Shown one piece after another: positions 17,784 to 59,017 of a stretch of 64,000 nucleotides of DNA. The DNA is from a virus. Location of the stretch: the UHGV virus genome UHGV-1366123. The stretch is one strand, 5' to 3'. Below the pieces are notes generated by a model. It was not told where the DNA came from and searched no databases. It worked only from the letters and a program-made list of their open reading frames with translations. Position 1 is the first letter of the stretch; the number at the start of each line of letters is the position of its first letter. The position numbers and the translations under genes are program-made.

Positions 17784-17871
17784 AGACGTAGTGAGAGGTT
17801 TCGCTCCTCTGAATATCTTCATCAAGAAGCACTACGTTTGATAAAAAGGTGGCGAGTTGTCCATACTCTTC

Positions 17872-17944
17872 TCAGTCTGGTAGGATTCGAACCTACATCA
17901 TCTAAGAACCACCTTATAGGAATTTCCGATTATTCTACAGACTG
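17872..17944 (-). tRNA. tRNA-like sequence with canonical acceptor, D and T arms but a non-canonical anticodon arm (probable pseudo-tRNA)
   Basis: T arm GTAGG-TTCGAAT-CCTAC, acceptor CAGTCTG/CAGACTG, D stem GAAT/ATTC; no 5-bp stem with 7-nt loop can be drawn in the anticodon region. Confidence 0.4.
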
Positions 17945-18310
17945 AACAACAAACGATAATGAAGATTCAAAATGCTGAATATCTGCAAATCGGAAACTAT
18001 GATTGATTCATCTTTTAGACAGCTATGGACAATACCGAATGGGGTATCAAACCAGTAACTTGAAGATTTTTATAGATTGCTGTAAGTCCATAATCTAAAA
18101 GACGTTTTTTCTATCTTTTTCGTCGAAATCTTTACTGCAGACGTTATCTATGAGCCAATTATGAAGATTCTGTTTGCTGTGTGTCTACAGATCCCGACAT
18201 TAAGAATTCTTTAAAAGAACGCTTTGTGAATGATGACTTCCCAGTGGACTACGTAGTTTTAGGAGCAATTGCATAGTAATTTGCTGTGAATCCAATAGAT
18301 CATCATTTTG

Positions 18311-19340: not shown

Positions 19341-20294
19341 TCATTTAGTCGTAGTTTGTTTCTTCTTGATGATCATTCTAAAATAAGTCTGCTCGCCATT
19401 CACAGACAAATATTTCCCGTCGTTTCCCCTTCTGGATGTCACAATCTCAAATTGTTGAGGATTGAATTTATACAAGAATGTTATCGGAACCCCCATGCAA
19501 CCATTGTAATCTCGTGGTATATCCTTGACCCTATCGACATTTATACCATCATAATTGTCGTATTTGGGATATTCATGTTCGTGTCCATAGTAGTTTTTTG
19601 TAAGCGGAATATCTTCATGTCGCATAGAGTGGTTCAAATTCGTAAACCACAGACAATTATTGGTGGGCGTGATCATATTACCAGATTCGTCCATCCATGT
19701 TTTTTTCATGTAGGGTTCATAATGGGCTGGTATGATAAACCCAGAAAATTCGTTCCCACGATTTACACCAAGCCATGCCTTACCATCTTGAACGGATTTG
19801 AAGATTTCTTTGTTGGTGATAGAATTGATATTCCCAATAATGAGAAAGAGCTTATCGTATCTGATCAGTTGTGTCATATATTCACGGAACAACGAAAATG
19901 GTGGATTTGTAACAACTATGTCAGATTGTTCCAGCAAATCGATACTTTCTTGACTACGAAAGTCGCCATCACCATTGAAGTAAACAACATCAGCTGTCTT
20001 TGGATCTGTATCGACGAGTTCTGTCCCTGTGTATTCAAAGAAAAAACCACGACTGTTTTCCTTATAACAAGATGCAATCACCTTCCGAAGTCCCAATTCT
20101 TTGAAATTGGAAACGAAGTATTTGAAAAAGTTACTCGTCAGAGGATCATCACAATTGCAATACACAACTTTCCCTTTAAAATGGCTTTCATAATGTCGCA
20201 ATTCTCTTTCGATATCAATAAGTTGCGTATAGAACTCGTCGTTCTTTTGCTTTCTAGCATTACGAAGTAACTTGCTGGTTGTTGCCCTTGCCAT
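19341..20294 (-). CDS. N6-adenine DNA methyltransferase, EcoRI-methylase family (orphan)
   Basis: N-terminus MARATTSKLL..KNDEFYTQ..VVYCNCDDP..SNFFKYF..LGL.K.IASCY closely parallels M.EcoRI; motif IV IVVTNPPF present; no restriction enzyme gene adjacent. Confidence 0.8.
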   Translation of the reverse strand: MARATTSKLLRNARKQKNDEFYTQLIDIERELRHYESHFKGKVVYCNCDDPLTSNFFKYFVSNFKELGLRKVIASCYKENSRGFFFEYTGTELVDTDPKTADVVYFNGDGDFRSQESIDLLEQSDIVVTNPPFSLFREYMTQLIRYDKLFLIIGNINSITNKEIFKSVQDGKAWLGVNRGNEFSGFIIPAHYEPYMKKTWMDESGNMITPTNNCLWFTNLNHSMRHEDIPLTKNYYGHEHEYPKYDNYDGINVDRVKDIPRDYNGCMGVPITFLYKFNPQQFEIVTSRRGNDGKYLSVNGEQTYFRMIIKKKQTTTK

Positions 20295-20419: not shown

Positions 20420-20595
20420 GTAGAAGCCTTATCGTATGTGAAAAATCTGCGTTTTATCCAGTTCTCACTTCTTGTTTCAACCTGCCATTACTTTTTAGGA
20501 ACACGAGGTTCGGTCATCCATAAGAGGGCAGTCCGCAAGCGTAAATTCGGTGCTACGAACACCTACTCGATTTTTTATATGTTAGACAGTTTGAA
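20420..20595 (-). ncRNA. Putative TnpB omega-RNA (reRNA) scaffold region at and beyond the 3' end of tnpB
   Basis: Inferred from IS200/IS605 biology; locally GC-rich, structured segment (GGAACACGAGGTTCGGTCATCC...GGTGCTACGAACACC) immediately 3' of the tnpB stop. Confidence 0.35.
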
Positions 20596-21724
20596 GTTTT
20601 CTTTGTCCTTCAATGAGAATGTTCTTCGAAGCGTTTATATCTCTGTCGTGATATTCACCACATTCGGGACAAGTCCAAAACCTATCACCGAGTTTCAAGT
20701 CTTTCTTCTTGTAACCACAACATAAACAAGTCTTTGAACTTGGATAGAACCTATTGATAAGAACAACTCGCTTATCATTCATAAGAGCCTTATATTGCAA
20801 TATCGACTTGAACCGATAAAATCCAGACTCTTGGATAGCATTCGCAAGATAACGATTTCCAAGCATCCCTTTAATATTCAAGTCTTCCATGAACACCACG
20901 TCGTATGATTTGAGGATCTCGTTCACAACTGAGTGGATGTAGTTCTCTTTCTTGTTCGTTATATTCGCAATCACTTTTGCAAGTCTGATTCTCTGTTTGT
21001 TCCTATTGTTTGAACCTTTGACCTTTCTGGATAGTTGACGATGAAGTCTTGTGATCTTCTTTTCCTCCTTCTTGAAGAAGTGTTTGTTTTCAAACACAAA
21101 TCCATCAGAGGTTATGACGAAATCTTTCACACCAAGATCAATACCGACTTGCTTGTTGGTCTTTTCAAACTTTACAAATTCTGCTTCGGGAATGTCGATA
21201 AGGATTGATAAGAAGAAATTCCCACTCTTGGTTTTCGAGAGAGTTGCACTTCTTATGTTATCTTTGTACTTCTGTAAGCGTTTGTGATACAAGTCAGAAC
21301 AACGGAATCTGAGTTTTTGAAGAGAAGTGATTAGTGTTATATGTTTCGTTTCGAAAGTGTTCCTCTTTGAAATAGCATTACGAGGAAACAATGCTGATTG
21401 TTTGTCTTTCTTTGATTTAAACTTTGGAAAGCCTTTATGATGATTGAAGAAGTTTTGATAAGCACCGACCATCTGTTTGATTGCTTGGTTCATCACCTTT
21501 GTGTTCTGTTCTCTCAACCAAGCATATTGTTCATCTTTCAACAATGATCCGTGGAAATATTTCGATAGATCGCTTTCGCTTAGGTTTGTCTTGTCCGTTT
21601 CATAAGCCTTTTGTTTTCTATCGAGCATGTGATTATAGACAAAACGATAAGCACCAAGAACCTTGTTGAGTTCTTGTTCCTGCGCTTTGTTTGGATATAA
21701 CCTTATTTTAATCGCTCTAAACAT
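20582..21724 (-). mobile_element. tnpB: TnpB (IS200/IS605 OrfB-family RNA-guided nuclease), intact, no tnpA present
   Basis: N-terminal IRLYPNKAQ..YRFVYNH; RuvC-I GIDLGVKD, RuvC-II FMEDLNIKGM, zinc finger CLCCG...CPECG, RuvC-III DRDINASKNIL; all catalytic residues present. Confidence 0.8.
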
Positions 21725-22212: not shown

Positions 22213-22279
22213 TGCTTCGTGAAGGATTCGAACCTTCATCAATTCCGTCGAATCGCTCTGGCCATTGAGCTAACGAAGC
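22213..22279 (-). tRNA. Short (67-nt) tRNA-like element: perfect acceptor, D and T arms, anticodon arm collapsed (pseudo-tRNA)
   Basis: Acceptor GCTTCGT/ACGAAGC, D arm GCTC-AATGGCCA-GAGC, T arm GAAGG-TTCGAAT-CCTTC; only 17 nt between D and T arms. Confidence 0.35.
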
Positions 22280-22481
22280 CCTCATAGATTCCCAGTTTTA
22301 ACGGAAACTGTGGCGGACTATGAACCCCTGCGTGAAACCGCACTTGAACTTCAACCAAGATCTGTACGTACTTTAACCCAAGTGATAGGTTTTGAACCCT
22401 AATTGAAGCAGAACTATTCCCATTCTGAGAGGGGACGTTATCAACTTAAAAATTGGTGAAACGTCCTAAAGTCAACATCGG

Positions 22482-22554
22482 TACGCCATGAAGGATTTGA
22501 ACCTTCGACCGCCAAGGTATAAGCTTGGAACTCTAACCACTGAGTTAATGGCGC
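22482..22554 (-). tRNA. tRNA-Ile (anticodon TAT, decodes AUA)
   Basis: Acceptor GCGCCAT/ATGGCGT, D arm ACTC-AGTGGTT-AGAGT, anticodon stem CCAAG/CTTGG, loop CTTATAC, T arm GAAGG-TTCAAAT-CCTTC. Confidence 0.65.
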
Positions 22555-22589: not shown

Positions 22590-23135
22590 TTAGAACGTTT
22601 TACTGTATCCAAAAACGTCGGAAAGATCTCTCAGAGAATCATTCATAAGTATCTCGTGGACATTGTTGTAAACCGTACCAAGAAGATTCGATCCTCTCCA
22701 TTTCGATTTATCAACTATACGAATATCAGTTTCAGAAAGTCCACATCCCCAGATTTTGTCATAAGGACTGGCTTCTACAAACTCATAACCTTCATTAATT
22801 AGTTGTGTGTAGTGATCTCTGATTTTCTTTGAAGATCTTAGTTTCATCAGTACCACAAAGAGCATCACATCATATCTGACAGATGACCAACGACCATCAT
22901 TGTAGTTTCGAACAAGTCTTCCAAGCTCTTTACAAAAACGTGGGTTATCAGAATTCTTGAGGATCTGCATTGCGATATCTTCGTCTCCGAAGTACTTTGC
23001 TTTCAAGAACATGAACAATGATTCACCGCAATGGAAAACAAGACCATTATAGTTGATCTCGGATTTATAGAAGTTGCTGTAAAAATCCGAACCAGTGAAG
23101 AAAGTCACCAATTTATGATCTTTGAAAATCTTCAT
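22590..23135 (-). CDS. NADAR-domain protein (YbiA/DUF1768 family; ADP-ribose N-glycosidase-like)
   Basis: FFTGSDFYSNFY ... GESLFMFLKAKYF ... RWSSVRYDVMLFVVLMKLRS ... LINEGYEFVEASPYDKIWGCG matches YbiA blocks (F-SNF, SEHYFQAQKF, W..V...VM...L..KF, LL.T....LVE.S..D..WG.G). Confidence 0.75.
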   Translation of the reverse strand: MKIFKDHKLVTFFTGSDFYSNFYKSEINYNGLVFHCGESLFMFLKAKYFGDEDIAMQILKNSDNPRFCKELGRLVRNYNDGRWSSVRYDVMLFVVLMKLRSSKKIRDHYTQLINEGYEFVEASPYDKIWGCGLSETDIRIVDKSKWRGSNLLGTVYNNVHEILMNDSLRDLSDVFGYSKTF

Positions 23136-23157
23136 CGTGTCTCTTGTTCTTTTTTTG

Positions 23158-23230
23158 TGATTCCAGTGGGGCTTGAACCCACAACCCCTGCATTAAAAGT
23201 GCAGTGCTCTACCTGTTGAGCTATGAAATC
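23158..23230 (-). tRNA. tRNA-Lys (anticodon TTT)
   Basis: Acceptor GATTTCA/TGGAATC, D arm GCTC-AACAGGTA-GAGC, anticodon stem CTGCA/TGCAG, loop CTTTTAA, T arm GTGGG-TTCAAGC-CCCAC. Confidence 0.7.
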
Positions 23231-23370
23231 TAAACCATTGTTCTAAGCGAATCTCTTCAAGTGAATGATTAATCGCTTCGGTATTCTTATTGTGAATGTC
23301 AAGATATTAGTTTCAATGATAGTTACCAACAGCTATTGGAGATTATCAACAAATATTAGCAGTTCCCATG

Positions 23371-23446
23371 CCAAGAAGACCCCCCCCCGATGAATTGATT
23401 CTTTTTTATCAAAAAGAATCAATTCATCGGGGGGGGGTCTTCTTGG
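23371..23446. repeat. 76-bp perfect palindrome: 36-bp stem (CCAAGAAGA-C9-GATGAATTGATTCTTTTT) around a TATC loop, with C9/G9 homopolymer tracts
   Basis: seen in sequence; every position pairs. Confidence 0.9.
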
Positions 23447-23464
23447 AGATTATCGTTTATGGGT

Positions 23465-23520
23465 GAAGATTGAAGATTGAAGATTGAAGATTGAAGATTG
23501 AAGATTGAAGATTGGCTTCC
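23465..23520. repeat. Microsatellite (GAAGATT)x8
   Basis: seen in sequence. Confidence 0.95.
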
Positions 23521-23573
23521 GCATATTGAAGAAATGTGTTAAAGTGTATTATCAACTGATACGCTTTAAAGGA

Positions 23574-23657
23574 AGGTATTTTCCTTGCGCTCTGAGAGGT
23601 TCAAGAATATGAAAATAGCGGAGAATAGATCAGAGCGCAAGGAAAGTACCAAGGAAA
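23574..23657. repeat. MITE-like hairpin element copy (TIRs GGAAGGTATTTTCCTTGCGCTCTGA / TCAGAGCGCAAGGAAAGTACC; loop carries GAAAATAGCGGAG core)
   Basis: seen in sequence. Confidence 0.7.
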
Positions 23658-24060
23658 GCCAAGGAGACATATCCTTTGGAATGATGGGTTTCTGTCGGGA
23701 GACAATGACTATTTCCAAGGATTATGAGAAGACTATGACAATAATGGAGGACAATGGAAGATTATCAATGACTTGAAAGACAATGGTTGGAAAATGACTG
23801 ATTTTTAGAGGATTATCAGAGGACTATCTTTTGGAAAATGGTTGGTGATTATCGAATTAAAGGAAGGTACTTTCCTTGTCCTCGAAGCTATTCGAGAATA
23901 TGAAAATAGCGGAGACCATACTCGAGTTCAAGGAAAGTACCAAGGAAATCCAAGGAGACATATTTTCGAGGATTATGGTCTCTGTGGCTAATGGGAGGAA
24001 TATCTTGGAAAGAGAATATCAGTTTAAAGGTGTTAAAAGGTGTTAATCTGTTCGGGGATT
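23640..24060. repeat. Left iteron array: GACAATG / TGACAAT / GACTATGACAAT repeats (reverse complement of the right arrays)
   Basis: seen in sequence. Confidence 0.7.
23867..23941. repeat. MITE-like hairpin element copy
   Basis: TTAAAGGAAGGTACTTTCCTTG ... CAAGGAAAGTACC; loop GAGAATATGAAAATAGCGGAGACCATACTCGAG. Confidence 0.7.
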
Positions 24061-24070
24061 TAGTGAAGGT

Positions 24071-24170
24071 CTTTTTTAAAGTTTTACGCATGCGTTTTTT
24101 AAAGTTTTACGTGCGTGCGCTTTTTTTTGGAGTTTCACGCATGCGTTTTTTAAAGTTTCGCAACACGCAC
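24071..24170. repeat. Four tandem ~25-bp repeats TTTTTTAAAGTTTTACGCATGCG (each with a GCATGC or GCGTGC palindromic core); a fifth variant lies at 24376-24405
   Basis: seen in sequence. Confidence 0.85.
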
Positions 24171-24236
24171 CTGGTACTTTTGGTTTAAACTGGAGATTTA
24201 AAAACATGCGCACGACATGTTTCTGCGCTCAATGTA

Positions 24237-24289
24237 TGGTTTGGGGCAGCCTGGCTTGGCACTATCGTGCCAAGGCTGACCCCAAACCA
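24237..24289. repeat. Imperfect 26-bp palindrome TGGTTTGGGGCAGCCTGGCTTGGCAC-TATC-GTGCCAAGGCTGACCCCAAACCA, same TATC centre as the 36-bp palindrome
   Basis: seen in sequence. Confidence 0.8.
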
Positions 24290-24420
24290 GTTGTAAATAC
24301 TTTGTATTTACGATAAAACTGGAAAAAAATAACGCATGCGTATACGGGTATACACGGGAATTCGCGCGTTTTTTCAAAGTTTCGTGTATACGCACGGTTT
24401 GTCGGCAAATTCCGAGATTA

Positions 24421-24720
24421 GTCTGATTATCTTTCAATTTCAGTCTTTCAATTTTCAACTTTCCATTCAAAATCAGTTAACAATTCTTAACAATTCTCTG
24501 TTCTTGGAATGATTATCTTTCAATTTCAATCTTTCAATCTCTCTTTGAATAATCATCCATTGTCTTTCCAAGAATCATAGTCTTTCCAAGAATCATAAAT
24601 ATCTCGGGAATCATCAATGGTCTCTTTCAATTGTTCTGGTCTGTTCTGGGATTAAAAAGACTAATTTTGATTTTCAACTTTCCCTTTCCACAATAAAACC
24701 ATTTAGTGATTGTCTTTTGT
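24421..24720. repeat. AT-rich block of short direct repeats (TCTTTCAAT, TTCAATTTCA, TCTTTCCAAGAATCATA x2)
   Basis: seen in sequence. Confidence 0.7.
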
Positions 24721-24839
24721 CTTCAAAACGATTATCATTAAAGGGGCGGAAATCTATGATTCAGACAAAAGTCATCTTCTATTAACAAATCTTTAGAGAA
24801 TTCTTTCAATCTTTAGAGAAATTTTTCAAAGAGACTATG

Positions 24840-25017
24840 ACTTTTTCTATTGTCTTTGATAATCTTTTCACGATCCTCTATTGTCTTGGTGATTCTTTGA
24901 TGATCAGTCATTGTCTTTGATTATGGTTGATTGTCTTCCATAGTCTTCTGATAATCACTGACAATAGTCATTGTCTTCCGACAATCATACCACCATTCAA
25001 CAGAATACCTCTTCTGA
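24840..25017. repeat. Right iteron array 1: (A/C)(G)TCATTGTCTT(T/C) and GATTGTCTT repeats
   Basis: seen in sequence; three segmental copies follow. Confidence 0.75.
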
Positions 25018-25112
25018 TTACAGGAAGGTACTTTCCTTGCGCTCTGATCCATTTTCCGCTATTTCTATCCCACCGAATGTCTTCGAGGACAAGGAAAGTA
25101 CCTTCCTTTAAT
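25018..25112. repeat. MITE-like hairpin element copy with its loop inverted relative to the 23574 and 23867 copies
   Basis: TTACAGGAAGGTACTTTCCTTGCGCTCTGA ... TTCCGCTATTTC ... CAAGGAAAGTACCTTCCTTTAA. Confidence 0.7.
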
Positions 25113-25159
25113 TCAACCATTCTCAACCATTTTCTGGTAGATCATCTTCATAATCATTC

Positions 25160-25356
25160 AAAGAACCAGTTGTGAAGACGGTCATCATTGTCTTTCCATA
25201 ATCCTTTGATGGTCAGTCATTGTCTTTGATTGTTTTCCATAGTCAGTCATTGTCTTTGATTATGGTCGATTGTCTTTCCATAGTCTTCTCATAATCCTTC
25301 GAAATAGTCATTGTCTCCCGACAGAAACCCATAATCCTCGAGAATATGTCTCCTGA
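25160..25356. repeat. Right iteron array 2 (GTCATTGTCTTTGAT / GATTGTCTTTCCATAGTC units)
   Basis: seen in sequence. Confidence 0.75.
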
Positions 25357-25450
25357 TTACAGGAAGGTACTTTCCTTGAACTCGAGTATGGTCTCCGCTA
25401 TTTTCATATTCTTGAATATCTCAGAGCGCAAGGAAAGTACCTCGTCTTAA
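25357..25450. repeat. MITE-like hairpin element copy; loop is the inverted form of the 23867 copy
   Basis: loop AACTCGAGTATGGTCTCCGCTATTTTCATATTCT is the reverse complement of the 23867-copy loop. Confidence 0.7.
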
Positions 25451-25454
25451 TTAA

Positions 25455-25695
25455 TGAATCAGAACTATTGTCTCTTCATAGTCTTCTGATAATACTTCAA
25501 TAATCGTCCATTGTCTTTCAATAATCAGCCATTGTCTTCCGATTATGGTCGATTGTCTTTGATGATTGTTGATTGTCTTTGATGATTGTTGATTGTCTTC
25601 CATAATCAGTCATTATCTTGGATAGTCTTCCATAATCCTTCGAAATGGTCTATTGTCTTCGGATGATGACCCATAGTCCCCGAGAATACCTCTCC
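25455..25695. repeat. Right iteron array 3, including GATGATTGTTGATTGTCTTT x2
   Basis: seen in sequence. Confidence 0.75.
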
Positions 25696-25699
25696 TTGG

Positions 25700-25792
25700 C
25701 TCTCCTTGGTACTTTCCTTGCATTCTGATACACTTTCCGCTATTTTCATATTCTCGGGCTATTTCGAGGACAAGGAAAGTACCTCTCTTTAA
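25700..25792. repeat. MITE-like hairpin element copy
   Basis: CCTTGGTACTTTCCTTGCATTCTGA ... CAAGGAAAGTACCTCTCTTTAA. Confidence 0.65.
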
Positions 25793-25927
25793 TTCACAAC
25801 TCTGTGACCATTTCTCCAGCCAATTTTCTGATTATTGCTGGAAGGTCAATGTTTGGATACAGATGTGGGGAGAAGAAATCAAACTTCTCCCCACATTCTT
25901 CTTTTTGATTTGTAGGTTTCTTTTCTT

Positions 25928-27673: not shown

Positions 27674-28399
27674 ATGAAGATTCTCATAATTGGTGACGTT
27701 CACGAAAGCGACTTCTGGATAGACCACGTTCAAAAAAACAAAGATCGTGTCGAGAAGATCGTTTTCATGGGGGACTATTTCGATTCATTCAAGAAAGTCT
27801 CTGCGCAGGTGGCTTTCGAGAACTTTAAGAAGATCCTCGCTCTTCGTCAGACTTTAGGAGAAGAGAAGGTCATCCTCCTTATTGGCAACCACGACTTCCA
27901 TTATACAAAGTTCTGTATGGGAAGATATAGCGGATTTTCAACCACGACTTTTGTCCTTGTAGGGAGCTTCCTTGATGAACTGGTTGATAATGGAACTTTG
28001 GTTCTCTCCTATGAATCTGGCGGTTATCTTTTCTCTCATGCTGGGGTCTCCGAGACTTGGTTTAAGGAGATGACTGGTGAAGATTCAAGTGTCGAAGATA
28101 TCAACCCATTGTTCAAGCAATCTCCAAGAATCGTCGAATTCCGAAATGATGAACGAACCACGTCGCAATATGGCGACAACGAGCATCAGTCTCCGATTTG
28201 GATTCGACCAAATGCTCTCTCAGAGAATCCTTACGGAGATTATCATCAAATAGTTGGTCATACTGCTTTCGATTTCTCGAATATCGATTCTAATCGTGTG
28301 ACTATGGACAATGGTAAGAACCTCTATTTCACAGATTCTAATCAACACGAAGCATTCATCTTGGATACCGAGACTGGAGAGTGTGAAATCCTAAGATAA
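27674..28399 (+). CDS. Calcineurin-like metallophosphoesterase (Ser/Thr phosphatase-like)
   Basis: GDVHE, GDYFD, GNHD and GHTAF metal-binding motifs in canonical order. Confidence 0.7.
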   Translation: MKILIIGDVHESDFWIDHVQKNKDRVEKIVFMGDYFDSFKKVSAQVAFENFKKILALRQTLGEEKVILLIGNHDFHYTKFCMGRYSGFSTTTFVLVGSFLDELVDNGTLVLSYESGGYLFSHAGVSETWFKEMTGEDSSVEDINPLFKQSPRIVEFRNDERTTSQYGDNEHQSPIWIRPNALSENPYGDYHQIVGHTAFDFSNIDSNRVTMDNGKNLYFTDSNQHEAFILDTETGECEILR

Positions 28400-28417: not shown

Positions 28418-28470
28418 GATTGGGCGTAACAACTTTCTATTTTTGTTGTTACGCCCAATCTTTATTTTTA
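28418..28470. terminator. Bidirectional terminator (16-bp stem GATTGGGCGTAACAAC/GTTGTTACGCCCAATC plus T-tract)
   Basis: seen in sequence between convergent genes. Confidence 0.75.
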
Positions 28471-29064
28471 ATCGATAAACTCGTAATTGTCGGGATTGTT
28501 CACAATGTAGCAACCTACATCAATGTAGTAAAACTCACCACCACTTTTTATAACGTTTGATTCTCGAACGTCATCTATTAAGTAATAACCATCAAAGTAG
28601 ATGTTTCGAGAATAACCAGTTTCTTTGTTTTTACATGGTCTAAAACCTCTCTTGCGAAGATCTCTTCTTATTTCTTCTTCTGTAGCATCAACACCTTCGA
28701 TGAACTTCTGAGTGGTCATAAAGTAACTGCTGTCGTTCTCGATTATGCAGAAAGCTATCGGTGTTATCTTACTCTCGGGGAAAACTTTGTTATAAGTTTT
28801 AAGAGATCTGCACCAGAAATCAGCGTTTACTTCATAGTCGCAAGATACACCAAGAAGTCTTGTGGATGTGCTTTTGACAACCTTGTCTCCGTCGATATGC
28901 TTCCAAACGAAACTTTCACCACCTGTGTTTAATGGTTGCATAATGTCACCATCAATCACCGAAGCGAGTATTTCGTCATAGATATCAACATCATAGCCAC
29001 AATCAATAACCCTTGTGAAATCTGATCTCCAACTTTCAAAGATTGGTTTTATTAGGCGGTTCAT
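28468..29064 (-). CDS. hypothetical protein, possibly an atypical kinase-like fold
   Basis: YYLIDDVRESNVI ... YYIDVG resembles a catalytic-loop and DFG-like arrangement; weak. Confidence 0.3.
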   Translation of the reverse strand: MNRLIKPIFESWRSDFTRVIDCGYDVDIYDEILASVIDGDIMQPLNTGGESFVWKHIDGDKVVKSTSTRLLGVSCDYEVNADFWCRSLKTYNKVFPESKITPIAFCIIENDSSYFMTTQKFIEGVDATEEEIRRDLRKRGFRPCKNKETGYSRNIYFDGYYLIDDVRESNVIKSGGEFYYIDVGCYIVNNPDNYEFID

Positions 29065-53215: not shown

Positions 53216-55177
53216 ATGAACATTGACGACATTCTCTCCCTCGATCTTGATTCTCTCCGAGAATGGTTACGTGAGAGAAACGATGAATATCGATCGGGAT
53301 TTCCCACTGTCTCAGACGATGATTATGACAAGGCGTACAATCATTATTCTCAAGAGACGTGTACAAGACTGTTTGATGGTCGTGTTTCACACGAACGTGT
53401 AGAAAACTCGATCCCAATGTACGGTCTCGAGAAGATAAAGACAATCGAAGAATTCCGTGAATGGGTTATTAAAAATGGGCTTCAGTCTCAGAAGTTCATC
53501 ATCACACCAAAGTATGATGGCGTGTCTTGTGGCGTGACAACAGATGAAAATGGGCAAGTTACTGCACTCGTGAAAGGTCGTGAGAATATGAGCTTCTCGA
53601 TTTCTCACCATTTCTCACTTATAGAACCACTTTTCAAAGATGATGAAGAGATAGTCGGTGAACTTATCATTCCACAGAGCGTATTCTCAGAGAAGTACTC
53701 ATCAGAATACAAGAATGTGAGAAACATGGTCGCAGGAAAGCTCAATCCACGATCAAGGTCTTCGGAGGAGCTTCGAGACTTTGTCTTTATGAAGTACACC
53801 AGTTATGCTGGTTCTTATAAGACAAAGCAGGAGATGATCGACAGGTTGAACACTCTCAACAAGATACCTGTTAGGTACATTCTCGTCGACTACGAAGACA
53901 TAACCGAAGAGTTCCTATCAACAACTTATCAAGAGTTTATCCTTGAGTTTGAAATCGATGGTCTTGTTATTGATGTTAATGACCTCTCTGTTGCAGATTC
54001 TCTTGGTCGCAACTCTATCGGAAATCCAAAGTTCGCCATTGCTTATAAAGGATCATTTGGTGACACAAAGAAGGTGATTATCCGATCTTTGAATTGGTTC
54101 ATCGGGAAAGATGGAACGTTTAACCCCACCATTTCGACCGACAAAGTCCTCATTGATGGTGCTATGTGTGGCAACAACATCTACGTCGACAATGCAAGTT
54201 ATGTCCGTGATAATGGCTTGAGACCTGGACAAGAAATCTTCATCAAGAGATCTGGGAAAGTGATACCAAGAATCCACTCTATTCCCGAGAAAGAAAGATG
54301 GAAGTCTTACGGAGAAATGGTGGAAAACAGTCACCTCTTCCGAGAATGTCCCCATTGTTCAAGTCCGATTGTCCTTGATGATTCTCTCGTGGATGTTTAT
54401 TGTCCAAATGAGAAATGCTCTGGGAGAAATCTCCAAGAGTTCATCTTCTTCTTCAAAGTGTTCGGTGTTGAAGGGATGTCAGATGTGACATATGAGAAGA
54501 TCTTCGACAAGAATTCTTTATACACTGACGAAATAGTAAGAGTCATCAGAGATCGTGCGAGTGTGTTCTCAGAGTTTGGAGACAAGCGTTCTTCCAACAT
54601 TGTCCGTTCGCTTGAAAAGTGTATATCCGACATCACCATTTCTCGTCTTATGCACGCATCAAACATGTTCCAAAGTCTTGGATCAGTCAAACTTCAATGG
54701 ATCGTCGATGAGTATTCTCTCACGTGGGAAAACTTAGAAGATTTCTACCCCTCATCCACAGACATTCTCAAAATCAACGGATTCGGGGATATCCAAGCAG
54801 GTATCTTTGTGGAAAACTATAAGAAGTTTATCGATTTCTATAAGTCCTTGTCCTCGGTACTCACTTTCAAGACAAAGGTAGAAACCACAGAATCCGACAT
54901 TTATCAAGGGAGAGTTTTCTGTTTCACTGGTTTCAGAAACAAGGCGATGGAAGACACTATTGTTAAAAATGGTGGGAAAGTGTCTGCAACATACACGAAG
55001 GTAGTTACTGATCTTGTCATTAAGGAGAAGGGAAGTGGATCATCGAAGGAACAAAAGGCGATGAGTGCAGGGATTAGGATTTATAGCGAATCAGAGTTTA
55101 GAGAACTGTTGGGAATGGAGACGATCATTGAGGAACAGCAAAAGTCGTTGATAGATCCTTCAAAAGCACTCTTCTAA
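53216..55177 (+). CDS. ligA: NAD-dependent DNA ligase (LigA family)
   Basis: Adenylation motif KYDGVSCG (KxDG), Zn-finger CPHCSSPIVLD...CPNEKC, C-terminal BRCT-like GRVFCFTGF...; 653 aa. Confidence 0.75.
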   Translation: MNIDDILSLDLDSLREWLRERNDEYRSGFPTVSDDDYDKAYNHYSQETCTRLFDGRVSHERVENSIPMYGLEKIKTIEEFREWVIKNGLQSQKFIITPKYDGVSCGVTTDENGQVTALVKGRENMSFSISHHFSLIEPLFKDDEEIVGELIIPQSVFSEKYSSEYKNVRNMVAGKLNPRSRSSEELRDFVFMKYTSYAGSYKTKQEMIDRLNTLNKIPVRYILVDYEDITEEFLSTTYQEFILEFEIDGLVIDVNDLSVADSLGRNSIGNPKFAIAYKGSFGDTKKVIIRSLNWFIGKDGTFNPTISTDKVLIDGAMCGNNIYVDNASYVRDNGLRPGQEIFIKRSGKVIPRIHSIPEKERWKSYGEMVENSHLFRECPHCSSPIVLDDSLVDVYCPNEKCSGRNLQEFIFFFKVFGVEGMSDVTYEKIFDKNSLYTDEIVRVIRDRASVFSEFGDKRSSNIVRSLEKCISDITISRLMHASNMFQSLGSVKLQWIVDEYSLTWENLEDFYPSSTDILKINGFGDIQAGIFVENYKKFIDFYKSLSSVLTFKTKVETTESDIYQGRVFCFTGFRNKAMEDTIVKNGGKVSATYTKVVTDLVIKEKGSGSSKEQKAMSAGIRIYSESEFRELLGMETIIEEQQKSLIDPSKALF

Positions 55178-55270: not shown

Positions 55271-58200
55271 ATGTCTAAAAGATCATCAGCAATTGTTAGA
55301 ACAAACCCATTATTAACTGGTAATATCAAGTTTGTAGTGAAATCAGACGGAGATTTCCAGATTTCCACAATACCAGTTAATGATACATTGTCGAGCATAG
55401 CTTATACGAAACCACTTAGTGTATCATCAGCACCTTTTGATGATATCTCGAAAGTTTTCGCTGATGTTCCGAAGAACATATTCTACGAAGCACCTTCCAA
55501 ACCCGATGGTTATGTCTATGAGAAGTATGCGGACATGGTTGATCAAACCTATCTTTACAAAGTTCAGAGATGTACGTCGATGCTGTACGATGAGGAATTT
55601 TCGATTTTTGCCCCACTTTACATTGGTGAAAAACTTCCGAAATACTTCATCATTTATAAGTCCGATGGAAAGAAGGACAGACTTCGTGACTGTCAAATCT
55701 TGAAGATAATCGATCTCCATAAGTCCCCTATTGGGAAGTATTTCCAAAAACTCACTGATTTCCCACTTTTTAAAAATTCCCACCTACAATGTGACTTTAT
55801 ACAAAAGCATGTCACTTACACTGGGATATCCATCGACAAATCATCAATTGTGCAGATATCCGAATCGATTGAAGACTTTGTGGATGGTGGGAAAAGTGTC
55901 TACGAGTTTGATAAATGGGTCACGGAAGGTTACAAGAGACATTCGCTCGTCTCCCACAAGCTCTTCAACTTCGAGTTCCTTTTTGATGATCCTTCCCGAG
56001 AGATCAAGTATGAGAATTACTTCGGTCTTTATGCCGATGACATAAATCTCACAACCTATCTGTATTCAGACATAAATGATGTCGTAATATCGAAAATACA
56101 AGACAACTTCAAAGATGTCGACCTTTGTCTTATGAAGACTGATGATGCAGTTGTCGATATCAAGAACTTCAAGAAGAAAGATTTCCCACAATACACAACA
56201 ACGAACATTTTCAACATACGCCTTCAAGGAGATGAGGAGCAAGAACCTGCTTACAACGAGATTATCTACGACGCTTCACGTAAGCCGATGATCAACACGT
56301 CGATAAAGATCTTCATTGATGGGAAAGAATCAGAAACGATACTCTCCAACACCCTCTTGAATCTTGAGCAAGGTGACTATGGTTATGAGAAATGGTCTCG
56401 TGATGGTTGGTTCTTGACATATTACAACCCATTCGGATCTAAAGAAGAAGTCCTGCAGAGAATTGCGTCGTGTCTTGAATGGGTCGTTGATGCTCTCCGT
56501 CTGTATGGTGTGAAAGTCTTCGTGGATAATGACCACGACAGAATAATCGTCGAAAACTCAACAAGACCTTCTATTGAGTTCGAGATAACTTCTGCTGATG
56601 GAACACTTTCGCTCTTGTATGAGAAATTCTCAAGAAGTGATAACAACTTCATGATGTCCCATTCTAATGCTCTCAACTGTGTAGACAAGTACGTAAAGAA
56701 TGGGAATCACTTTGAACGTGTCAAGCACGTCAAGAAGAGACGACACGTTGATATGTTCGACATAATCTCGGACACACCAATCTATCAGACAAAGAACGTC
56801 ATACAGGTTTATGATCAGACCGAATTCACCTTGTCCGTCGTGAACTTCATCGATATCTGTGACTTCGACTTTATGATCAAGACAAAGACAAAGAGAAACG
56901 ACATACTCATTGAACTTGAACAATACACTCCCGAAGAACAGAAGACTGATCCCGATCTGTCCAAGTTCCTCGGTTATGATACGATTTCGATTGATGAGAA
57001 GAGACCTCTTGTTTCTCTGCAATCAGTGTGCAAGTGGGTTTCTGAGTTTAAAGATGTCCGTCTGGATGAGTATCGTTTGAATGTATCGGAAGAGTTCGGT
57101 TCGGATAACTTCTCTCCTTCGTTCAACATTTCTTATCCTAATCCGAAGTATTACACCCACGAGTTCTTCCCAATTTCGAGACATCCACTGGTGGAGAAAG
57201 ATGGGAAAATGTCTGCGTATTTCTCTGAACCATTCAACGAACTGAAGTATTGCTTCTCGAGTTATGACTACTTCCAAGAATACTTCACTGTCTTTGGTTA
57301 TAGCTTTAGAGACGGATCGTACTCGAAAACTGATCCTTCTGAAAATTGGTCAATCATTTCGAAGAACAACGTCGGTGACTTCGTTACAATGTTTAGGGGT
57401 GTGCTCATAAGTATCCATTCCAAGAACGATATCGACGGCTACAAGTTCTCCTCGATTCTCAATGTCAATCCTAATGGTCAGTCTTCCATACGCATTGTGA
57501 GAAATAGACGGTTTAAGAGCATTGTTATGATCTGTACCATTTCTTACAATGACTATAAGATATCGAAAAACAATCTCTCCTTCCTCAATCTTTATACAAT
57601 GGGGTCTCAATCCACAAAGTCTAAAGATGGGAAGATAATCGATGGCAACCGTATCGACTTCGAAGGTGTAAGTGGTCTTCTGAAAATTGGTATTGATTCT
57701 TCCAACAATGACACTGTCAAGATGCAGGAATATGACCAGATGTTTGGTATAGAACTCGATATGCGATTTGTCTCTTACACTGATAGTTCTATTGAAATCG
57801 ATGCTATGATCAATGGTAGTCCACGTAAACTTCACGAATGGTACTCATTGAAAGATGATAAAACGTTCATGGAGATAATCGGCATCGAAGAAGATCTGGA
57901 GACTAATAGAAAGAATCTCGTAATGTTCAGATCCTTGAAGTGTGATTCTCTTGGGATTTACCTCAAACACGGATCTCTGACAATCAAAGACTATAACCAC
58001 AATTCGATCGTTATCGGAAAGTCGGTCAAGAAATGGGACAACTCGCACGAATTCTTCACGATTGATGACGGTGTTGTTTACATTGAAGCAAACAAGCCAT
58101 CAATGGAAGCCATCACCACACTTACGCCAAAGTCTCTCGTACAACATATCCAATCGTTAGATCCTAAGAAGAAGTCTTTGAAGTGGTATCTCGTCGGTGG

Positions 58201-59017
58201 TGGTAAAAACTTCCACAATTTCCAACACGAGTTTGTCAACTTCTCTCTTCTTCGTGAGATTGTAGAAAACAACAACTTCTCATATACAGAAGATAGAAGA
58301 CAAGATGACCTACAGTTTAAGTTCCACAGACCTATTGATCTCGGTTCTATGAAGAGGTATGGCGGAAAGTATGATCCAAAGATCAGTAAACTATCGACTG
58401 CTATCAATCCGAAAGTCTCTTCTATGATCGACCATTATCGAATGTCTTATAATGACTCTAAGGACACGTTCGACAAGACGATCAATTACGATATTCGAAA
58501 GGAGAATACTGCATTTGTGCTCGGAGATATCCGAATCCCAGAGTTCGTATACAACGACCATAAGTCATTAAAGGTCACAAGTCTCCCACTTTTTGGCGAC
58601 ACGTCTATCCCTTATGACAAATCTAAGCACTTTGCAGATTTCACGAGTATGTTCTCATCGAAGATCCTCAACTTGCCCAATTCGTTCGAGATAACTGTTG
58701 GGAAGTGGAATGTTGATGATCAAGGGAACTATTCTTCCGAGATTAACCTCATCGATTCTTTCTTGGAAAAGTTCAAGCAGGAGATGATTGATGCCGTTGA
58801 TCATCTTGGTACAATCGATGATCCTCGTGTCTATGTGGAAGAATATTGTAAGAAGAATATCGGAATGCTCTACAAGATCTCGGATTCGAAGATGCTCTCA
58901 AATGGTGAAGTCGTCAAAGATTTCTCAATTTCTCTCGATCAGAACGTCATAAAGATTCATCACCATACGATAGAAAATGTTCATCTTGAGATGACCATTT
59001 CCGTGGGTCTTGTGTAA
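55271..59017 (+). CDS. Large virion structural protein (1248 aa; baseplate wedge or fibre-like)
   Basis: size, late promoter; no enzymatic motifs. Confidence 0.5.
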   Translation: MSKRSSAIVRTNPLLTGNIKFVVKSDGDFQISTIPVNDTLSSIAYTKPLSVSSAPFDDISKVFADVPKNIFYEAPSKPDGYVYEKYADMVDQTYLYKVQRCTSMLYDEEFSIFAPLYIGEKLPKYFIIYKSDGKKDRLRDCQILKIIDLHKSPIGKYFQKLTDFPLFKNSHLQCDFIQKHVTYTGISIDKSSIVQISESIEDFVDGGKSVYEFDKWVTEGYKRHSLVSHKLFNFEFLFDDPSREIKYENYFGLYADDINLTTYLYSDINDVVISKIQDNFKDVDLCLMKTDDAVVDIKNFKKKDFPQYTTTNIFNIRLQGDEEQEPAYNEIIYDASRKPMINTSIKIFIDGKESETILSNTLLNLEQGDYGYEKWSRDGWFLTYYNPFGSKEEVLQRIASCLEWVVDALRLYGVKVFVDNDHDRIIVENSTRPSIEFEITSADGTLSLLYEKFSRSDNNFMMSHSNALNCVDKYVKNGNHFERVKHVKKRRHVDMFDIISDTPIYQTKNVIQVYDQTEFTLSVVNFIDICDFDFMIKTKTKRNDILIELEQYTPEEQKTDPDLSKFLGYDTISIDEKRPLVSLQSVCKWVSEFKDVRLDEYRLNVSEEFGSDNFSPSFNISYPNPKYYTHEFFPISRHPLVEKDGKMSAYFSEPFNELKYCFSSYDYFQEYFTVFGYSFRDGSYSKTDPSENWSIISKNNVGDFVTMFRGVLISIHSKNDIDGYKFSSILNVNPNGQSSIRIVRNRRFKSIVMICTISYNDYKISKNNLSFLNLYTMGSQSTKSKDGKIIDGNRIDFEGVSGLLKIGIDSSNNDTVKMQEYDQMFGIELDMRFVSYTDSSIEIDAMINGSPRKLHEWYSLKDDKTFMEIIGIEEDLETNRKNLVMFRSLKCDSLGIYLKHGSLTIKDYNHNSIVIGKSVKKWDNSHEFFTIDDGVVYIEANKPSMEAITTLTPKSLVQHIQSLDPKKKSLKWYLVGGGKNFHNFQHEFVNFSLLREIVENNNFSYTEDRRQDDLQFKFHRPIDLGSMKRYGGKYDPKISKLSTAINPKVSSMIDHYRMSYNDSKDTFDKTINYDIRKENTAFVLGDIRIPEFVYNDHKSLKVTSLPLFGDTSIPYDKSKHFADFTSMFSSKILNLPNSFEITVGKWNVDDQGNYSSEINLIDSFLEKFKQEMIDAVDHLGTIDDPRVYVEEYCKKNIGMLYKISDSKMLSNGEVVKDFSISLDQNVIKIHHHTIENVHLEMTISVGLV

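What the first reader, a model, noticed from the sequence alone, without database searches (positions are those of the whole stretch)
22590..23135. Phage-encoded NADAR (YbiA-family) protein, a candidate counter-measure to DNA ADP-ribosylating defence toxins
NADAR enzymes hydrolyse ADP-ribose N-glycosidic linkages, and family members reverse guanine ADP-ribosylation of the DarT type. This ORF has all the YbiA-like blocks (F-SNF, E-S..F..K, W..V..VM, D..WG-G). It sits in the island among other candidate anti-defence genes, right next to tRNA-Ile.
Basis: partly seen in the sequence, partly recalled or inferred. Interest (0 to 1): 0.7.

Follow-up and report, generated by a model that had tools for sequence, protein, structure and literature searches.

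The report
Phage NADAR enzyme inside tRNA array
This is a genuine, intact phage gene for a NADAR enzyme that removes ADP-ribose from nucleic-acid bases, probably to undo a bacterial defence toxin, but this kind of phage counter-defence gene was described experimentally in 2025, so it is a new member of a known class.

Summary
The ORF is real: 22590-23135, minus strand, 181 aa. It is a NADAR-domain protein (Pfam PF08719, 110.8 bits against a cutoff of 35.1; AlphaFold pLDDT 92.7; TM 0.74 to P. nicotianae NADAR 8BAU). The catalytic residues E38, K45 and E121 are conserved. dN/dS is about 0.1 across seven lineage relatives.

The gene sits between tRNA-Lys(UUU), 21 nt upstream, and tRNA-Ile(UAU), 35 nt downstream. 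All three are on the same strand. The phage is an uncultivated one of about 150 kb, probably infecting Bacteroidota.

Phage NADARs ('AdfN') were shown in 2025 to neutralise the DarTG1 defence by removing ADP-ribose from guanine in DNA. This protein is in the same PHROG (phrog_1017) as the tested AdfN-Bas60, at 31% identity. It matches no PADLOC DarG model or solved DarG1-type structure. It is closer to the general NADAR family than to E. coli YbiA.

Not shown: its real substrate (DNA, RNA/tRNA or a soluble metabolite), and whether the host carries a guanine ADP-ribosyltransferase. tRNA adjacency recurs in this clade but is not universal.

Verdict: a correct call, a new member of a known kind, low interest.

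The parts
22590..23135 (-). NADAR-domain CDS, 181 aa, ATG start, TAA stop
   Evidence: ORF list. Pfam PF08719 110.8 bits. phrog_1017. AlphaFold pLDDT 92.7. Foldseek match to 8BAU, TM 0.74. dN/dS 0.06-0.15.
23022..23024 (-). Codon for E38. It aligns with the catalytic Glu E43 of PnNADAR, E88 of E. coli C7 DarG1 and E36 of AdfN-T4.
   Evidence: Invariant in 47 relatives and in the alignment with three tested AdfNs, PnNADAR and YbiA. The role of this residue comes from PMC11543638 and PMC11825919. Codon read: ttc on the + strand, GAA in the gene.
23001..23003 (-). Codon for K45, seven residues after the Glu, as for K95 of C7 DarG1 and K43 of AdfN-T4
   Evidence: Invariant. The K43A mutant of AdfN-T4 is impaired.
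22773..22775 (-). Codon for E121, in the VEAS motif. It aligns with E125 of PnNADAR, the second acidic residue that contacts the distal ribose.
   Evidence: Alignments. Invariant. Role of the residue.
23157..23230 (-). tRNA-Lys(UUU), whose 3' end lies 21 nt upstream of the NADAR start codon. It is probably co-transcribed with the NADAR gene.
   Evidence: ARAGORN. Rfam tRNA 71.4 bits. The same tRNA lies 17-21 nt upstream in all six IMG/VR lineage relatives and in L002 and L003.
22480..22554 (-). tRNA-Ile(UAU), starting 35 nt downstream of the NADAR stop codon
   Evidence: ARAGORN. Rfam 68.3 bits. About 91% identical over 58 nt to a Lak megaphage tRNA.
22213..22279 (-). A further 67-nt tRNA-like gene in the same array, missed by ARAGORN, with an atypical anticodon arm
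   Evidence: Rfam tRNA 56.3 bits. RNAfold gives a cloverleaf with a 4-nt anticodon loop.
19341..20294 (-). Context: orphan EcoRI-type N6-adenine DNA methyltransferase in the same variable island, a likely anti-restriction gene
   Evidence: Pfam PF13651 389.8 bits. Split into three pieces in relative L003 and absent in L010 and L011.
20582..21724 (-). Context: TnpB (IS200/IS605 OrfB) insertion, not part of the NADAR function
   Evidence: Pfam PF07282, PF01385 and PF12323. Present in only 3 of 7 lineage relatives.

Best explanation
The gene encodes a stand-alone, catalytically competent NADAR N-glycosidase (an ADP-ribosylglycohydrolase). It is probably transcribed as part of a tRNA-Lys / NADAR / tRNA-Ile polycistron and released by tRNA processing. 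That would leave a short, A-rich, Shine-Dalgarno-free leader, which suits a Bacteroidota host.

During infection it most likely removes ADP-ribose that a host ADP-ribosyltransferase (DarT1-like or pierisin/ScARP-like) has attached to the N2 amino group of guanine in phage DNA, and possibly to cytosine or to RNA. This would restore replication and transcription. In other words, it is an AdfN-type enzymatic counter-defence.

Shown here:
- family membership, fold and intact catalytic residues;
- purifying selection;
- conservation in every member of the phage lineage examined;
- membership of the same PHROG and PADLOC model as the experimentally validated AdfN-Bas60.

Inferred:
- the substrate;
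- the existence of a cognate toxin in the host;
- co-transcription with the tRNAs.
For: Family and fold:
- Pfam NADAR 110.8 bits against 35.1.
- AlphaFold2 pLDDT 92.7.
- Foldseek hits only 8BAU (TM 0.74, E=4.5e-9) and 2B3W (TM 0.67).

Active site:
- E38, K45 and E121 are invariant in 47 relatives.
- They align with the mutationally validated residues of PnNADAR, DarG1 and AdfN-T4.

Functional precedent:
- All NADAR families tested hydrolyse G-ADPr on DNA and RNA (PMC11125620; PMC12945103).
- AdfN-T4, AdfN-Bas32 and AdfN-Bas60 restore phage plating on DarTG1 hosts (PMC11825919).
- bas60_0111 is AdfN-Bas60. It is 31% identical to the window protein (E=9e-23), lies in phrog_1017 like it, and hits the same PADLOC model PDC-M42C.

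Maintenance:
- dN/dS is 0.06-0.15.
- The gene is present in 7 of 7 lineage relatives, while the neighbouring methyltransferase, TnpB and small ORFs come and go.

Expression context:
- Only 21 nt and 35 nt separate the CDS from same-strand tRNAs.
- 0 of 44 window genes have a Shine-Dalgarno core, and their leaders are A-rich.
Against: - No enzymology or genetics exists for this protein.
- Identity to the nearest tested AdfN is only 31%.
- In-vitro G-ADPr hydrolysis does not guarantee in-vivo protection. E. coli YbiA and T4 gp30.3 failed to rescue DarT1 toxicity in uninfected cells.
- I could not show that the presumed host clade (Prevotella/Bacteroidota) carries DarT1 or any guanine-specific ART. 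The literature searches were uninformative.
- The protein lacks the features of true DarG1 antitoxins: no long N-terminal extension, F119 rather than Asp at the position two residues before E121, and no adjacent ART.
- Iyer et al. 2022 argued that most phage NADARs act on soluble ADPr derivatives rather than on macromolecules.
Confidence: 0.5

Rival explanations
1. RNA/tRNA-directed de-ADP-ribosylase. The enzyme removes ADP-ribose from guanine or cytosine in RNA, for example tRNA or mRNA modified by a host RNA-targeting ART. Its fixed position beside tRNA-Lys(UUU) would reflect a shared role in protecting the translation apparatus.
For: - The CDS is embedded in a tRNA array in the window, in L003 and in the 52%-identical relative L004.
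- tRNA-Lys(UUU) lies 17-21 nt upstream in all six IMG/VR lineage relatives.
- Eight of 74 more distant clade members also have a tRNA within 500 nt, and 35 of all 80 loci have one within 10 kb.
- General-family and YbiA-type NADARs remove G-ADPr and C-ADPr from ssRNA, and ScARP/Scabin modify G in tRNA (PMC12945103).
- The AdfN authors themselves suggest that some phage NADARs may counter RNA ADP-ribosylating defences.
Against: - tRNA adjacency is not a clade-wide property. Forty-five of 80 loci have no tRNA within 10 kb.
- AdfN-Bas60 has no annotated tRNA within 2.5 kb on either side. AdfN-Bas32 lies 5.5 kb outside its phage's tRNA array.
- tRNA arrays in large phages commonly contain unrelated small accessory ORFs, as the Bas32 array shows.
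- No base-directed RNA ART with a NADAR-reversible product is yet known as a phage defence. CmdT modifies adenine N6 and is listed with CmdA as its reversing enzyme, not a NADAR.
Confidence: 0.15
2. Small-molecule N-glycosidase. The enzyme degrades soluble ADP-ribose-derived immune signals or by-products of NAD+ and RNA-repair chemistry, or acts like YbiA on reactive riboflavin-pathway intermediates.
For: - TIGR02464 ('riboflavin biosynthesis intermediates N-glycosidase') scores 124 bits against a cutoff of 73.7.
- E121 is the Glu that characterises YbiA-type and general NADARs.
- Iyer et al. 2022 proposed soluble ADPr derivatives as the main substrates of phage NADARs.
- The window encodes an NAD-dependent DNA ligase (53216-55177).
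Against: - The protein is closer to the general NADAR family than to YbiA: 138 bits against 72 bits with the family profile. A single-sequence phmmer search finds 8BAU but not 2B3W.
- The AdfN study found only one phage NADAR near the YbiA housekeeping group.
- No riboflavin, NAD-salvage, Macro, Nudix, SLOG or KptA genes were detected among the 40 window proteins scanned with Pfam.
- No soluble ADPr-signal substrate has been demonstrated for any NADAR.
Confidence: 0.15
3. Partner of a phage-encoded ADP-ribosyltransferase. The NADAR limits or reverses modifications made by the phage's own ART, as suggested by the co-expression of NADARs with Alt/Mod-type ARTs in T4-like phages.
For: - Iyer et al. 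note that in T4-like phages NADARs are expressed early together with ARTs.
- In T4, gene 30.3 lies about 3 kb from alt.
Against: - No ART domain was found among the 40 window proteins scanned. Many of those proteins have no Pfam hit, and about 85 kb of the genome lies outside the window.
- The immediate neighbours are tRNAs, not an ART.
Confidence: 0.05

Closest known systems
AdfN-Bas60 (bas60_0111, Escherichia phage PaulScherrer, phi92-like), an experimentally validated anti-DarTG1 phage NADAR (PMC11825919)
   Same: - A stand-alone NADAR of about 180 aa in a ~150 kb myovirus-type phage.
- Same PHROG (phrog_1017) and same PADLOC model PDC-M42C.
- The E, K and E catalytic positions and the VEASPYD motif are conserved.
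- No DarG1-type N-terminal extension.
   Different: - Only 31% identity.
- Bas60 has an 11-residue and a 6-residue insertion.
- No tRNA is annotated within 2.5 kb on either side of the Bas60 gene.
- The hosts differ: E. coli for Bas60, a probable Bacteroidota host here.
- Activity has been tested for Bas60 only.
Staphylococcus Kayvirus NADAR (e.g. phage K PhageK_028, 'YbiA-like protein')
   Same: - The closest cultured-phage homologues, at 44-46% identity, also in phrog_1017.
- The gene lies in an early or accessory region, with a metallophosphatase two genes away and a tRNA-Met 2.7 kb away.
- The window also has a Metallophos gene about 4.5 kb away.
   Different: - Function untested.
- Gram-positive host.
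- Not flanked directly by tRNAs.
Phytophthora nicotianae NADAR (PDB 8BAU), the general NADAR family
   Same: - The best structural and sequence match among solved structures: profile 138 bits and TM 0.74.
- The ADP-ribose-contacting residues E43 and E125 align with E38 and E121.
- It hydrolyses guanine-ADPr (PMC11543638).
   Different: - Eukaryotic protein with a 16-residue insertion after the WG.GL motif.
- Its physiological role is unknown.
AdfN-T4 (gp30.3) and DarG1 antitoxins (BC4488-type NADARs)
   Same: - Same superfamily, with the same Glu and Lys.
- Same chemistry (G-ADPr hydrolysis) and the same biological logic of undoing DarT1.
   Different: - T4 gp30.3 is in phrog_652 and is 19% identical.
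- DarG1 structures are not retrieved by the profile or fold searches, and no PADLOC DarG model hits.
- DarG1 uses an Asp two residues before the conserved Glu and has a long N-terminal extension. This protein has F119 at that position, and its catalytic Glu is at residue 38.
E. coli YbiA (PDB 2B3W)
   Same: - Same fold (TM 0.67).
- Glu at the E121 position.
- TIGR02464 is passed.
   Different: - 26% identity, and the profile score is half that to PnNADAR.
- YbiA lacks the 'ETD..vDKSKW' segment.
- YbiA is a housekeeping gene in a LexA-controlled operon and did not rescue DarT1 toxicity.

Membership tests
NADAR superfamily (Pfam PF08719 / DUF1768) | Sequence scores above the curated Pfam gathering threshold over the whole domain | tested here: met
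   110.8 bits against 35.1. Residues 13-163 match profile positions 16-162 of 163.
NADAR superfamily (Pfam PF08719 / DUF1768) | YbiA-like alpha+beta fold: a helical core flanked by two small beta sheets | tested here: met
   AlphaFold2 pLDDT 92.7 and pTM 0.88. The only significant Foldseek PDB hits are 8BAU (TM 0.74) and 2B3W (TM 0.67).
NADAR superfamily (Pfam PF08719 / DUF1768) | Catalytic Glu and the Lys seven residues later (E88/K95 in E. coli C7 DarG1; E36/K43 in AdfN-T4) | tested here: met
   E38 and K45 are invariant in 47 relatives and in the alignment with the reference proteins.
NADAR superfamily (Pfam PF08719 / DUF1768) | ADP-ribosyl N-glycohydrolase activity | not testable with these tools
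   Requires a biochemical assay on G-ADPr or C-ADPr oligonucleotides.
General NADAR / YbiA-type (as opposed to DarG1-type or T4-type) | Glu at the position of PnNADAR E125. This position is Asp-x-Glu with a functional Asp in DarG1, and is reported as His in T4-type phage NADARs. | tested here: met
   E121 in the VEAS motif aligns with PnNADAR YEAS and YbiA VEHT. The residue two positions earlier is F119, not Asp.
YbiA subfamily sensu stricto (housekeeping riboflavin-intermediate N-glycosidase) | Closest to E. coli YbiA or the plant RibA/RibD-fused domains, in a housekeeping genomic context | tested here: inconclusive
   TIGR02464 is passed (124 bits against 73.7). However, the family profile scores 138 bits to PnNADAR and 72 bits to YbiA, and single-sequence phmmer misses YbiA. 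The context is a phage tRNA array. No formal phylogeny was built.
DarG1 antitoxin (DarTG1 toxin-antitoxin system) | Encoded next to a DarT1 (DUF4433/BC4486-type) ADP-ribosyltransferase | tested here: not met
   The neighbours are tRNAs, two small ORFs, TnpB and a methyltransferase. No ART domain appears in the Pfam or PADLOC scans.
DarG1 antitoxin (DarTG1 toxin-antitoxin system) | N-terminal beta1-beta2-alpha1 extension and a catalytic Asp (D171 in E. coli C7) | tested here: not met
   The catalytic Glu is at residue 38, against 88 in C7 DarG1. F119 occupies the Asp position. No DarG PADLOC model hit. No DarG1 structure was retrieved. No DarG1 sequence was in hand for a direct alignment.
AdfN (phage orphan NADAR counter-defence, functional class) | A stand-alone NADAR encoded by a lytic-type phage without a cognate toxin | tested here: met
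   The phage context is shown by a head protease, major-head-like protein, UvsX, DnaB and SbcC/D-like genes, and by ~150 kb IMG/VR relatives. The protein has a single domain.
AdfN (phage orphan NADAR counter-defence, functional class) | Homology to an experimentally validated AdfN | tested here: met
   31% identity and E=9e-23 to AdfN-Bas60, in the same PHROG. AdfN-Bas32 scores 46 bits against the family profile.
AdfN (phage orphan NADAR counter-defence, functional class) | Restores phage replication, or rescues toxicity, in the presence of DarT1 | not testable with these tools
   Requires plaque or toxicity-rescue assays.
AdfN (phage orphan NADAR counter-defence, functional class) | The host clade encodes a guanine-directed nucleic-acid ART | not tested
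   Host inferred as Bacteroidota/Prevotella-like. The literature searches were uninformative.

The most novel reading that the evidence does not exclude
The fixed tRNA-Lys(UUU)-NADAR unit is conserved from 52% to 100% protein identity in this phage group. It could be a functional module in which the NADAR repairs ADP-ribosylated tRNA or other RNA, or clears an ADPr-derived by-product of tRNA damage and repair. That would make it a translation-protecting counter-defence distinct from the DNA-directed AdfN activity described so far.
Probability: 0.1. Interest if true: 0.55.

Novelty: new member of a known kind. Interest (0 to 1): 0.2.

Why it matters
If the inferred function holds, AdfN-type enzymatic counter-defence would extend to large uncultivated gut phages that probably infect Bacteroidota. 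It would also imply that these hosts use guanine- or cytosine-directed ADP-ribosylation of nucleic acids against phages, which has not been documented for that clade. That would be a modest extension of a published concept (Johannesman et al. 2025; Schuller et al. 2023; Cihlova et al. 2024), not a new principle. The only element that could add something new is the conserved tRNA-Lys/NADAR juxtaposition.

Tried and rejected
- **Lak synteny.** I checked whether the Lak-B1 tRNA cluster that matches the window's tRNA-Ile also carries the NADAR. It does not. Lak phages carry a 34-37% identical NADAR elsewhere.
- **AdfN paper supplement.** I tried to obtain its alignments and accessions, but none are held. 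I recovered AdfN-Bas60 and AdfN-Bas32 from the BASEL GenBank records instead.
- **DarG1-type structure for residue comparison.** I queried the PDB with T4 gp30.3 and found nothing useful. The D171 comparison therefore rests on the paper's description.
- **Literature on DarTG in Bacteroidota/Prevotella.** One search was badly built and returned irrelevant microbiome papers. The repeat gave nothing specific.
- **Bacteroidota -7 promoter motif.** I looked for TAnnTTTG upstream of tRNA-Lys and found no exact match.
- **Obligatory link between tRNA arrays and this NADAR clade.** Rejected: 45 of 80 loci have no tRNA within 10 kb.
- **DarG1-like antitoxin reading.** Rejected: no toxin neighbour and no DarG model hit.
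- **Membership of the 'DS32_2 NADAR family anti-phage protein' family.** Rejected: 37 bits against a cutoff of 240.
- **Wrong-end trim.** My first alignment (A1) trimmed the wrong end of the minus-strand ORF, so its numbering was off by one. It was redone as A2.

Full report
**1. The observation**

An ORF of 181 codons runs from an ATG at 23135 to a TAA at 22590 on the minus strand.
- FYSNF at residues 18-22
- E38-SLFMFL-K45
- W83-SSVRYDVM91
- D126-KIWG-C-G132

Profile searches leave no doubt about the family:
- Pfam PF08719 (NADAR) scores 110.8 bits against a gathering cutoff of 35.1, covering positions 16-162 of the 163-position model.
- NCBIfam TIGR02464 scores 124.1 bits against 73.7.
- PHROG phrog_1017 scores E=4e-40.
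- The only solved structure found by single-sequence search is the Phytophthora nicotianae NADAR, 8BAU (E=3e-15).

**2. Structure and active site**

An alignment of 47 relatives (A2) has these invariant residues: E38, K45, A46, F49, G72, W83, K98, E121, S123, D126, I128, W129, G130, G148, N150 and G153.

AlphaFold2 run on this alignment gives a confident model (mean pLDDT 92.7, pTM 0.88). Its only significant Foldseek matches in the PDB are 8BAU (TM 0.74) and E. coli YbiA 2B3W (TM 0.67).

According to Schuller et al. 2023 (PMC11543638), the distal ribose of ADP-ribose is held by E43 and E125 in PnNADAR. In E. coli C7 DarG1 the residues that catalyse guanine de-ADP-ribosylation are E88, K95 and D171. 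In AdfN-T4, the E36A and K43A mutants lose most activity (PMC11825919).

I aligned the window protein with its 52% relative, phage K NADAR, AdfN-Bas60, AdfN-Bas32, AdfN-T4, PnNADAR and YbiA. E38, K45 and E121 are invariant across all eight.

**3. Which NADAR family?**

Recent work divides the superfamily into four families: general NADARs, YbiA-type, T4-type phage NADARs and DarG1 antitoxins (PMC12945103). The evidence here places the protein as follows:
- The family profile scores 138 bits to PnNADAR (general family) and 72 bits to YbiA. It does not retrieve any DarG1 structure.
- PADLOC gives a hit to PDC-M42C and none to DarG models.
- T4 gp30.3 is in a different PHROG (phrog_652) and is 19% identical.
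- The protein has Glu at the E125-equivalent position and Phe, not Asp, two residues earlier.
- Its catalytic Glu is at residue 38, so it lacks the long N-terminal extension of DarG1.

It is therefore a general-family NADAR. 'YbiA-family' is acceptable only in the loose, superfamily sense.

**4. The genome it sits in**

The window encodes a head maturation protease, a major-head-like protein, UvsX, a DnaB-type helicase, an SbcC-like protein and an NAD-dependent ligase. It is only remotely similar to any deposited phage; the best match is about 33% protein identity to Lak megaphages in the SbcC-like gene.

The exact NADAR protein occurs on seven metagenomic contigs. Relatives at 86-92% identity lie on contigs of 145-150 kb, so the genome is probably about 150 kb.

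Three lines of evidence point to a Bacteroidota (Prevotella-like) host:
- None of 44 window genes has a Shine-Dalgarno core, and their leaders are A-rich.
- The TnpB gene's nearest relatives in reference genomes are a Prevotella sp. (64%) and a MAG labelled Mycoplasmatota (66%).
- tRNA-Ile is about 91% identical to a Lak (Prevotella phage) tRNA.

This host assignment is an inference.

**5. Local context**

The CDS is sandwiched between same-strand tRNA genes. tRNA-Lys(UUU) ends 21 nt before the ATG, and tRNA-Ile(UAU) begins 35 nt after the stop. A further tRNA-like gene follows at 22213-22279. With so little spacer, the mRNA is most likely made as part of a tRNA-containing transcript and released by tRNA processing. 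This is inferred, not shown.

tRNA-Lys(UUU) lies 17-21 nt upstream in all six IMG/VR lineage relatives. The 52%-identical relative L004 also has the gene inside a tRNA array, with tRNA-Lys(UUU) just downstream.

Beyond the lineage the association is recurrent but not general:
- 8 of 74 more distant clade members have a tRNA within 500 nt.
- 35 of all 80 loci have a tRNA within 10 kb, and 45 have none.
- AdfN-Bas60 has no annotated tRNA within 2.5 kb on either side.
- AdfN-Bas32 lies 5.5 kb outside its phage's large tRNA array.

The stretch between the NADAR and the conserved TnsA-like/head-closure gene is a variable island:
- The EcoRI-type methyltransferase is intact in the window, split in L003 and absent in L010 and L011.
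- TnpB is present in 3 of 7 relatives.
- A 155-aa ORF is present in 2 of 7.
- The NADAR is present in 7 of 7.

Its dN/dS is 0.06-0.15. The gene is thus a stably maintained resident of an accessory-gene hotspot. Only the orphan methyltransferase can be called a plausible anti-defence neighbour. The Kinase-PolyVal and metallophosphatase genes about 4.5-6 kb away are of unknown role.

**6. What it most likely does**

All NADAR families tested so far hydrolyse guanine-N2-ADP-ribose on DNA and RNA in vitro. General and YbiA-type members also remove cytidine-ADPr.

Johannesman et al. 2025 showed that three unrelated phage NADARs (T4 gp30.3, Bas32 and Bas60) restore phage replication on DarTG1 hosts. 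The Bas32 and Bas60 enzymes also neutralise DarT1 without any other phage factor. They further noted that most non-T4 phage NADARs cluster with non-YbiA, non-DarG1 bacterial NADARs, the group represented by Bas60.

I identified AdfN-Bas60 as bas60_0111 of phage PaulScherrer. It is 31% identical to the window protein (E=9e-23). It lies in the same PHROG and hits the same PADLOC model.

The best-supported mechanism is therefore an AdfN-type enzymatic counter-defence: removal of ADP-ribose from guanine, and possibly cytosine, in phage nucleic acid modified by a host ART. I put this at about 0.5.

The rivals are:
- an RNA/tRNA-directed role (about 0.15), suggested by the tRNA context;
- a small-molecule N-glycosidase role (about 0.15), suggested by TIGR02464 and by Iyer et al. 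2022;
- a partner of a phage-encoded ART (about 0.05).

The scores sum to 0.85, leaving room for other outcomes. No ART, Macro, Nudix or NAD-salvage gene was found among the 40 window proteins scanned with Pfam.

**7. What was not established**

- There are no activity data for this protein.
- I could not test whether the presumed host clade carries DarT1 or another guanine-directed ART.
- In-vitro activity does not guarantee in-vivo protection; YbiA and T4 gp30.3 failed to rescue DarT1 toxicity in uninfected cells.
- No formal phylogeny was built.

**8. Novelty and score**

Phage NADARs are abundant:
- Iyer et al. [quoted passage not shown]
- tblastn with this protein hits 719 of 50,697 phage records.
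- 246 IMG/VR stretches were confirmed from a single motif scan.

Their anti-DarTG1 role was published in 2025. This is a new member of a known kind, from an uncultivated phage that probably infects Bacteroidota. Interest is about 0.2. The only mildly unusual feature is the conserved tRNA-Lys/NADAR juxtaposition, which supports a low-probability (about 0.1) RNA-directed reading.

Noticed in passing
window 23370-25900: A 2.5-kb ORF-poor, repeat-dense stretch lies next to tRNA-Lys. It contains a perfect 36-nt palindrome with C9/G9 runs (23371-23446), (TGAAGAT)x7 (23464-23514), three ~340-nt direct repeat units (25002-25794) with inverted copies at 23566-23978, and many short CATTGTCTT-like iterons. 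It could be a replication origin or a regulatory or packaging region.
   Followed up: partly
window 22213-22279 (-): Rfam calls a 67-nt tRNA at 56 bits that ARAGORN misses. RNAfold gives a cloverleaf with only a 4-nt anticodon loop. It resembles the 68-nt 'tRNA-Gln(ctg)' that ARAGORN calls in relative L003. It may be a degenerate or non-canonical tRNA.
   Followed up: partly
window 17871-17945 (-): ARAGORN reports a 'tRNA-???' with a two-base anticodon (gg). Rfam scores it 42 bits as a tRNA. The same call is made on the second contig carrying the identical NADAR (L002). It is an odd tRNA in the Gln/His/Ser cluster.
   Followed up: no
window 20582-21724 (-): A TnpB (IS200/IS605 OrfB, Cas12f-like TNB domain) element is inserted in the island. 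It is present in only 3 of 7 lineage relatives. Its nearest relatives in reference genomes are Prevotella sp. CAG:1092 (64%) and a MAG labelled Mycoplasmatota (66%). It is useful as a clue to the host.
   Followed up: partly
window 19341-20294 (-); L003 7531-8474: An orphan EcoRI-type adenine methyltransferase is intact in the window. In relative L003 it is called as three fragments, and it is absent in L010 and L011. The gene appears to be decaying or turning over in the lineage.
   Followed up: partly
window, upstream of genes starting at 13672, 13588(-), 40397, 45551(-), 47691, 51204 and 55271: A recurrent motif containing ATAACGAAA (often TAAATAACGAAA) lies within about 25 nt of the start codon of at least seven genes. 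It is a candidate phage promoter or leader element.
   Followed up: no
whole window: None of 44 long ORFs has a Shine-Dalgarno core (AGGA/GGAG/GAGG) upstream. The leaders are A-rich, with 498 A among 1100 leader bases. This is consistent with a Bacteroidota-type host.
   Followed up: yes
window 27674-28399 (+), 28468-29064 (-); phage K locus L007: A calcineurin-like metallophosphatase and a Kinase-PolyVal gene lie about 4.5-6 kb from the NADAR. Kinase-PolyVal is 98-99% conserved in the lineage. Staphylococcus phage K also has a metallophosphatase two genes from its NADAR. This may be a recurrent early-gene neighbourhood.
   Followed up: no
window 55271-59017 and 59060-62842 (+): Two very large ORFs (1248 and 1260 aa) have no PHROG hit at E<=1e-5.
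   Followed up: no
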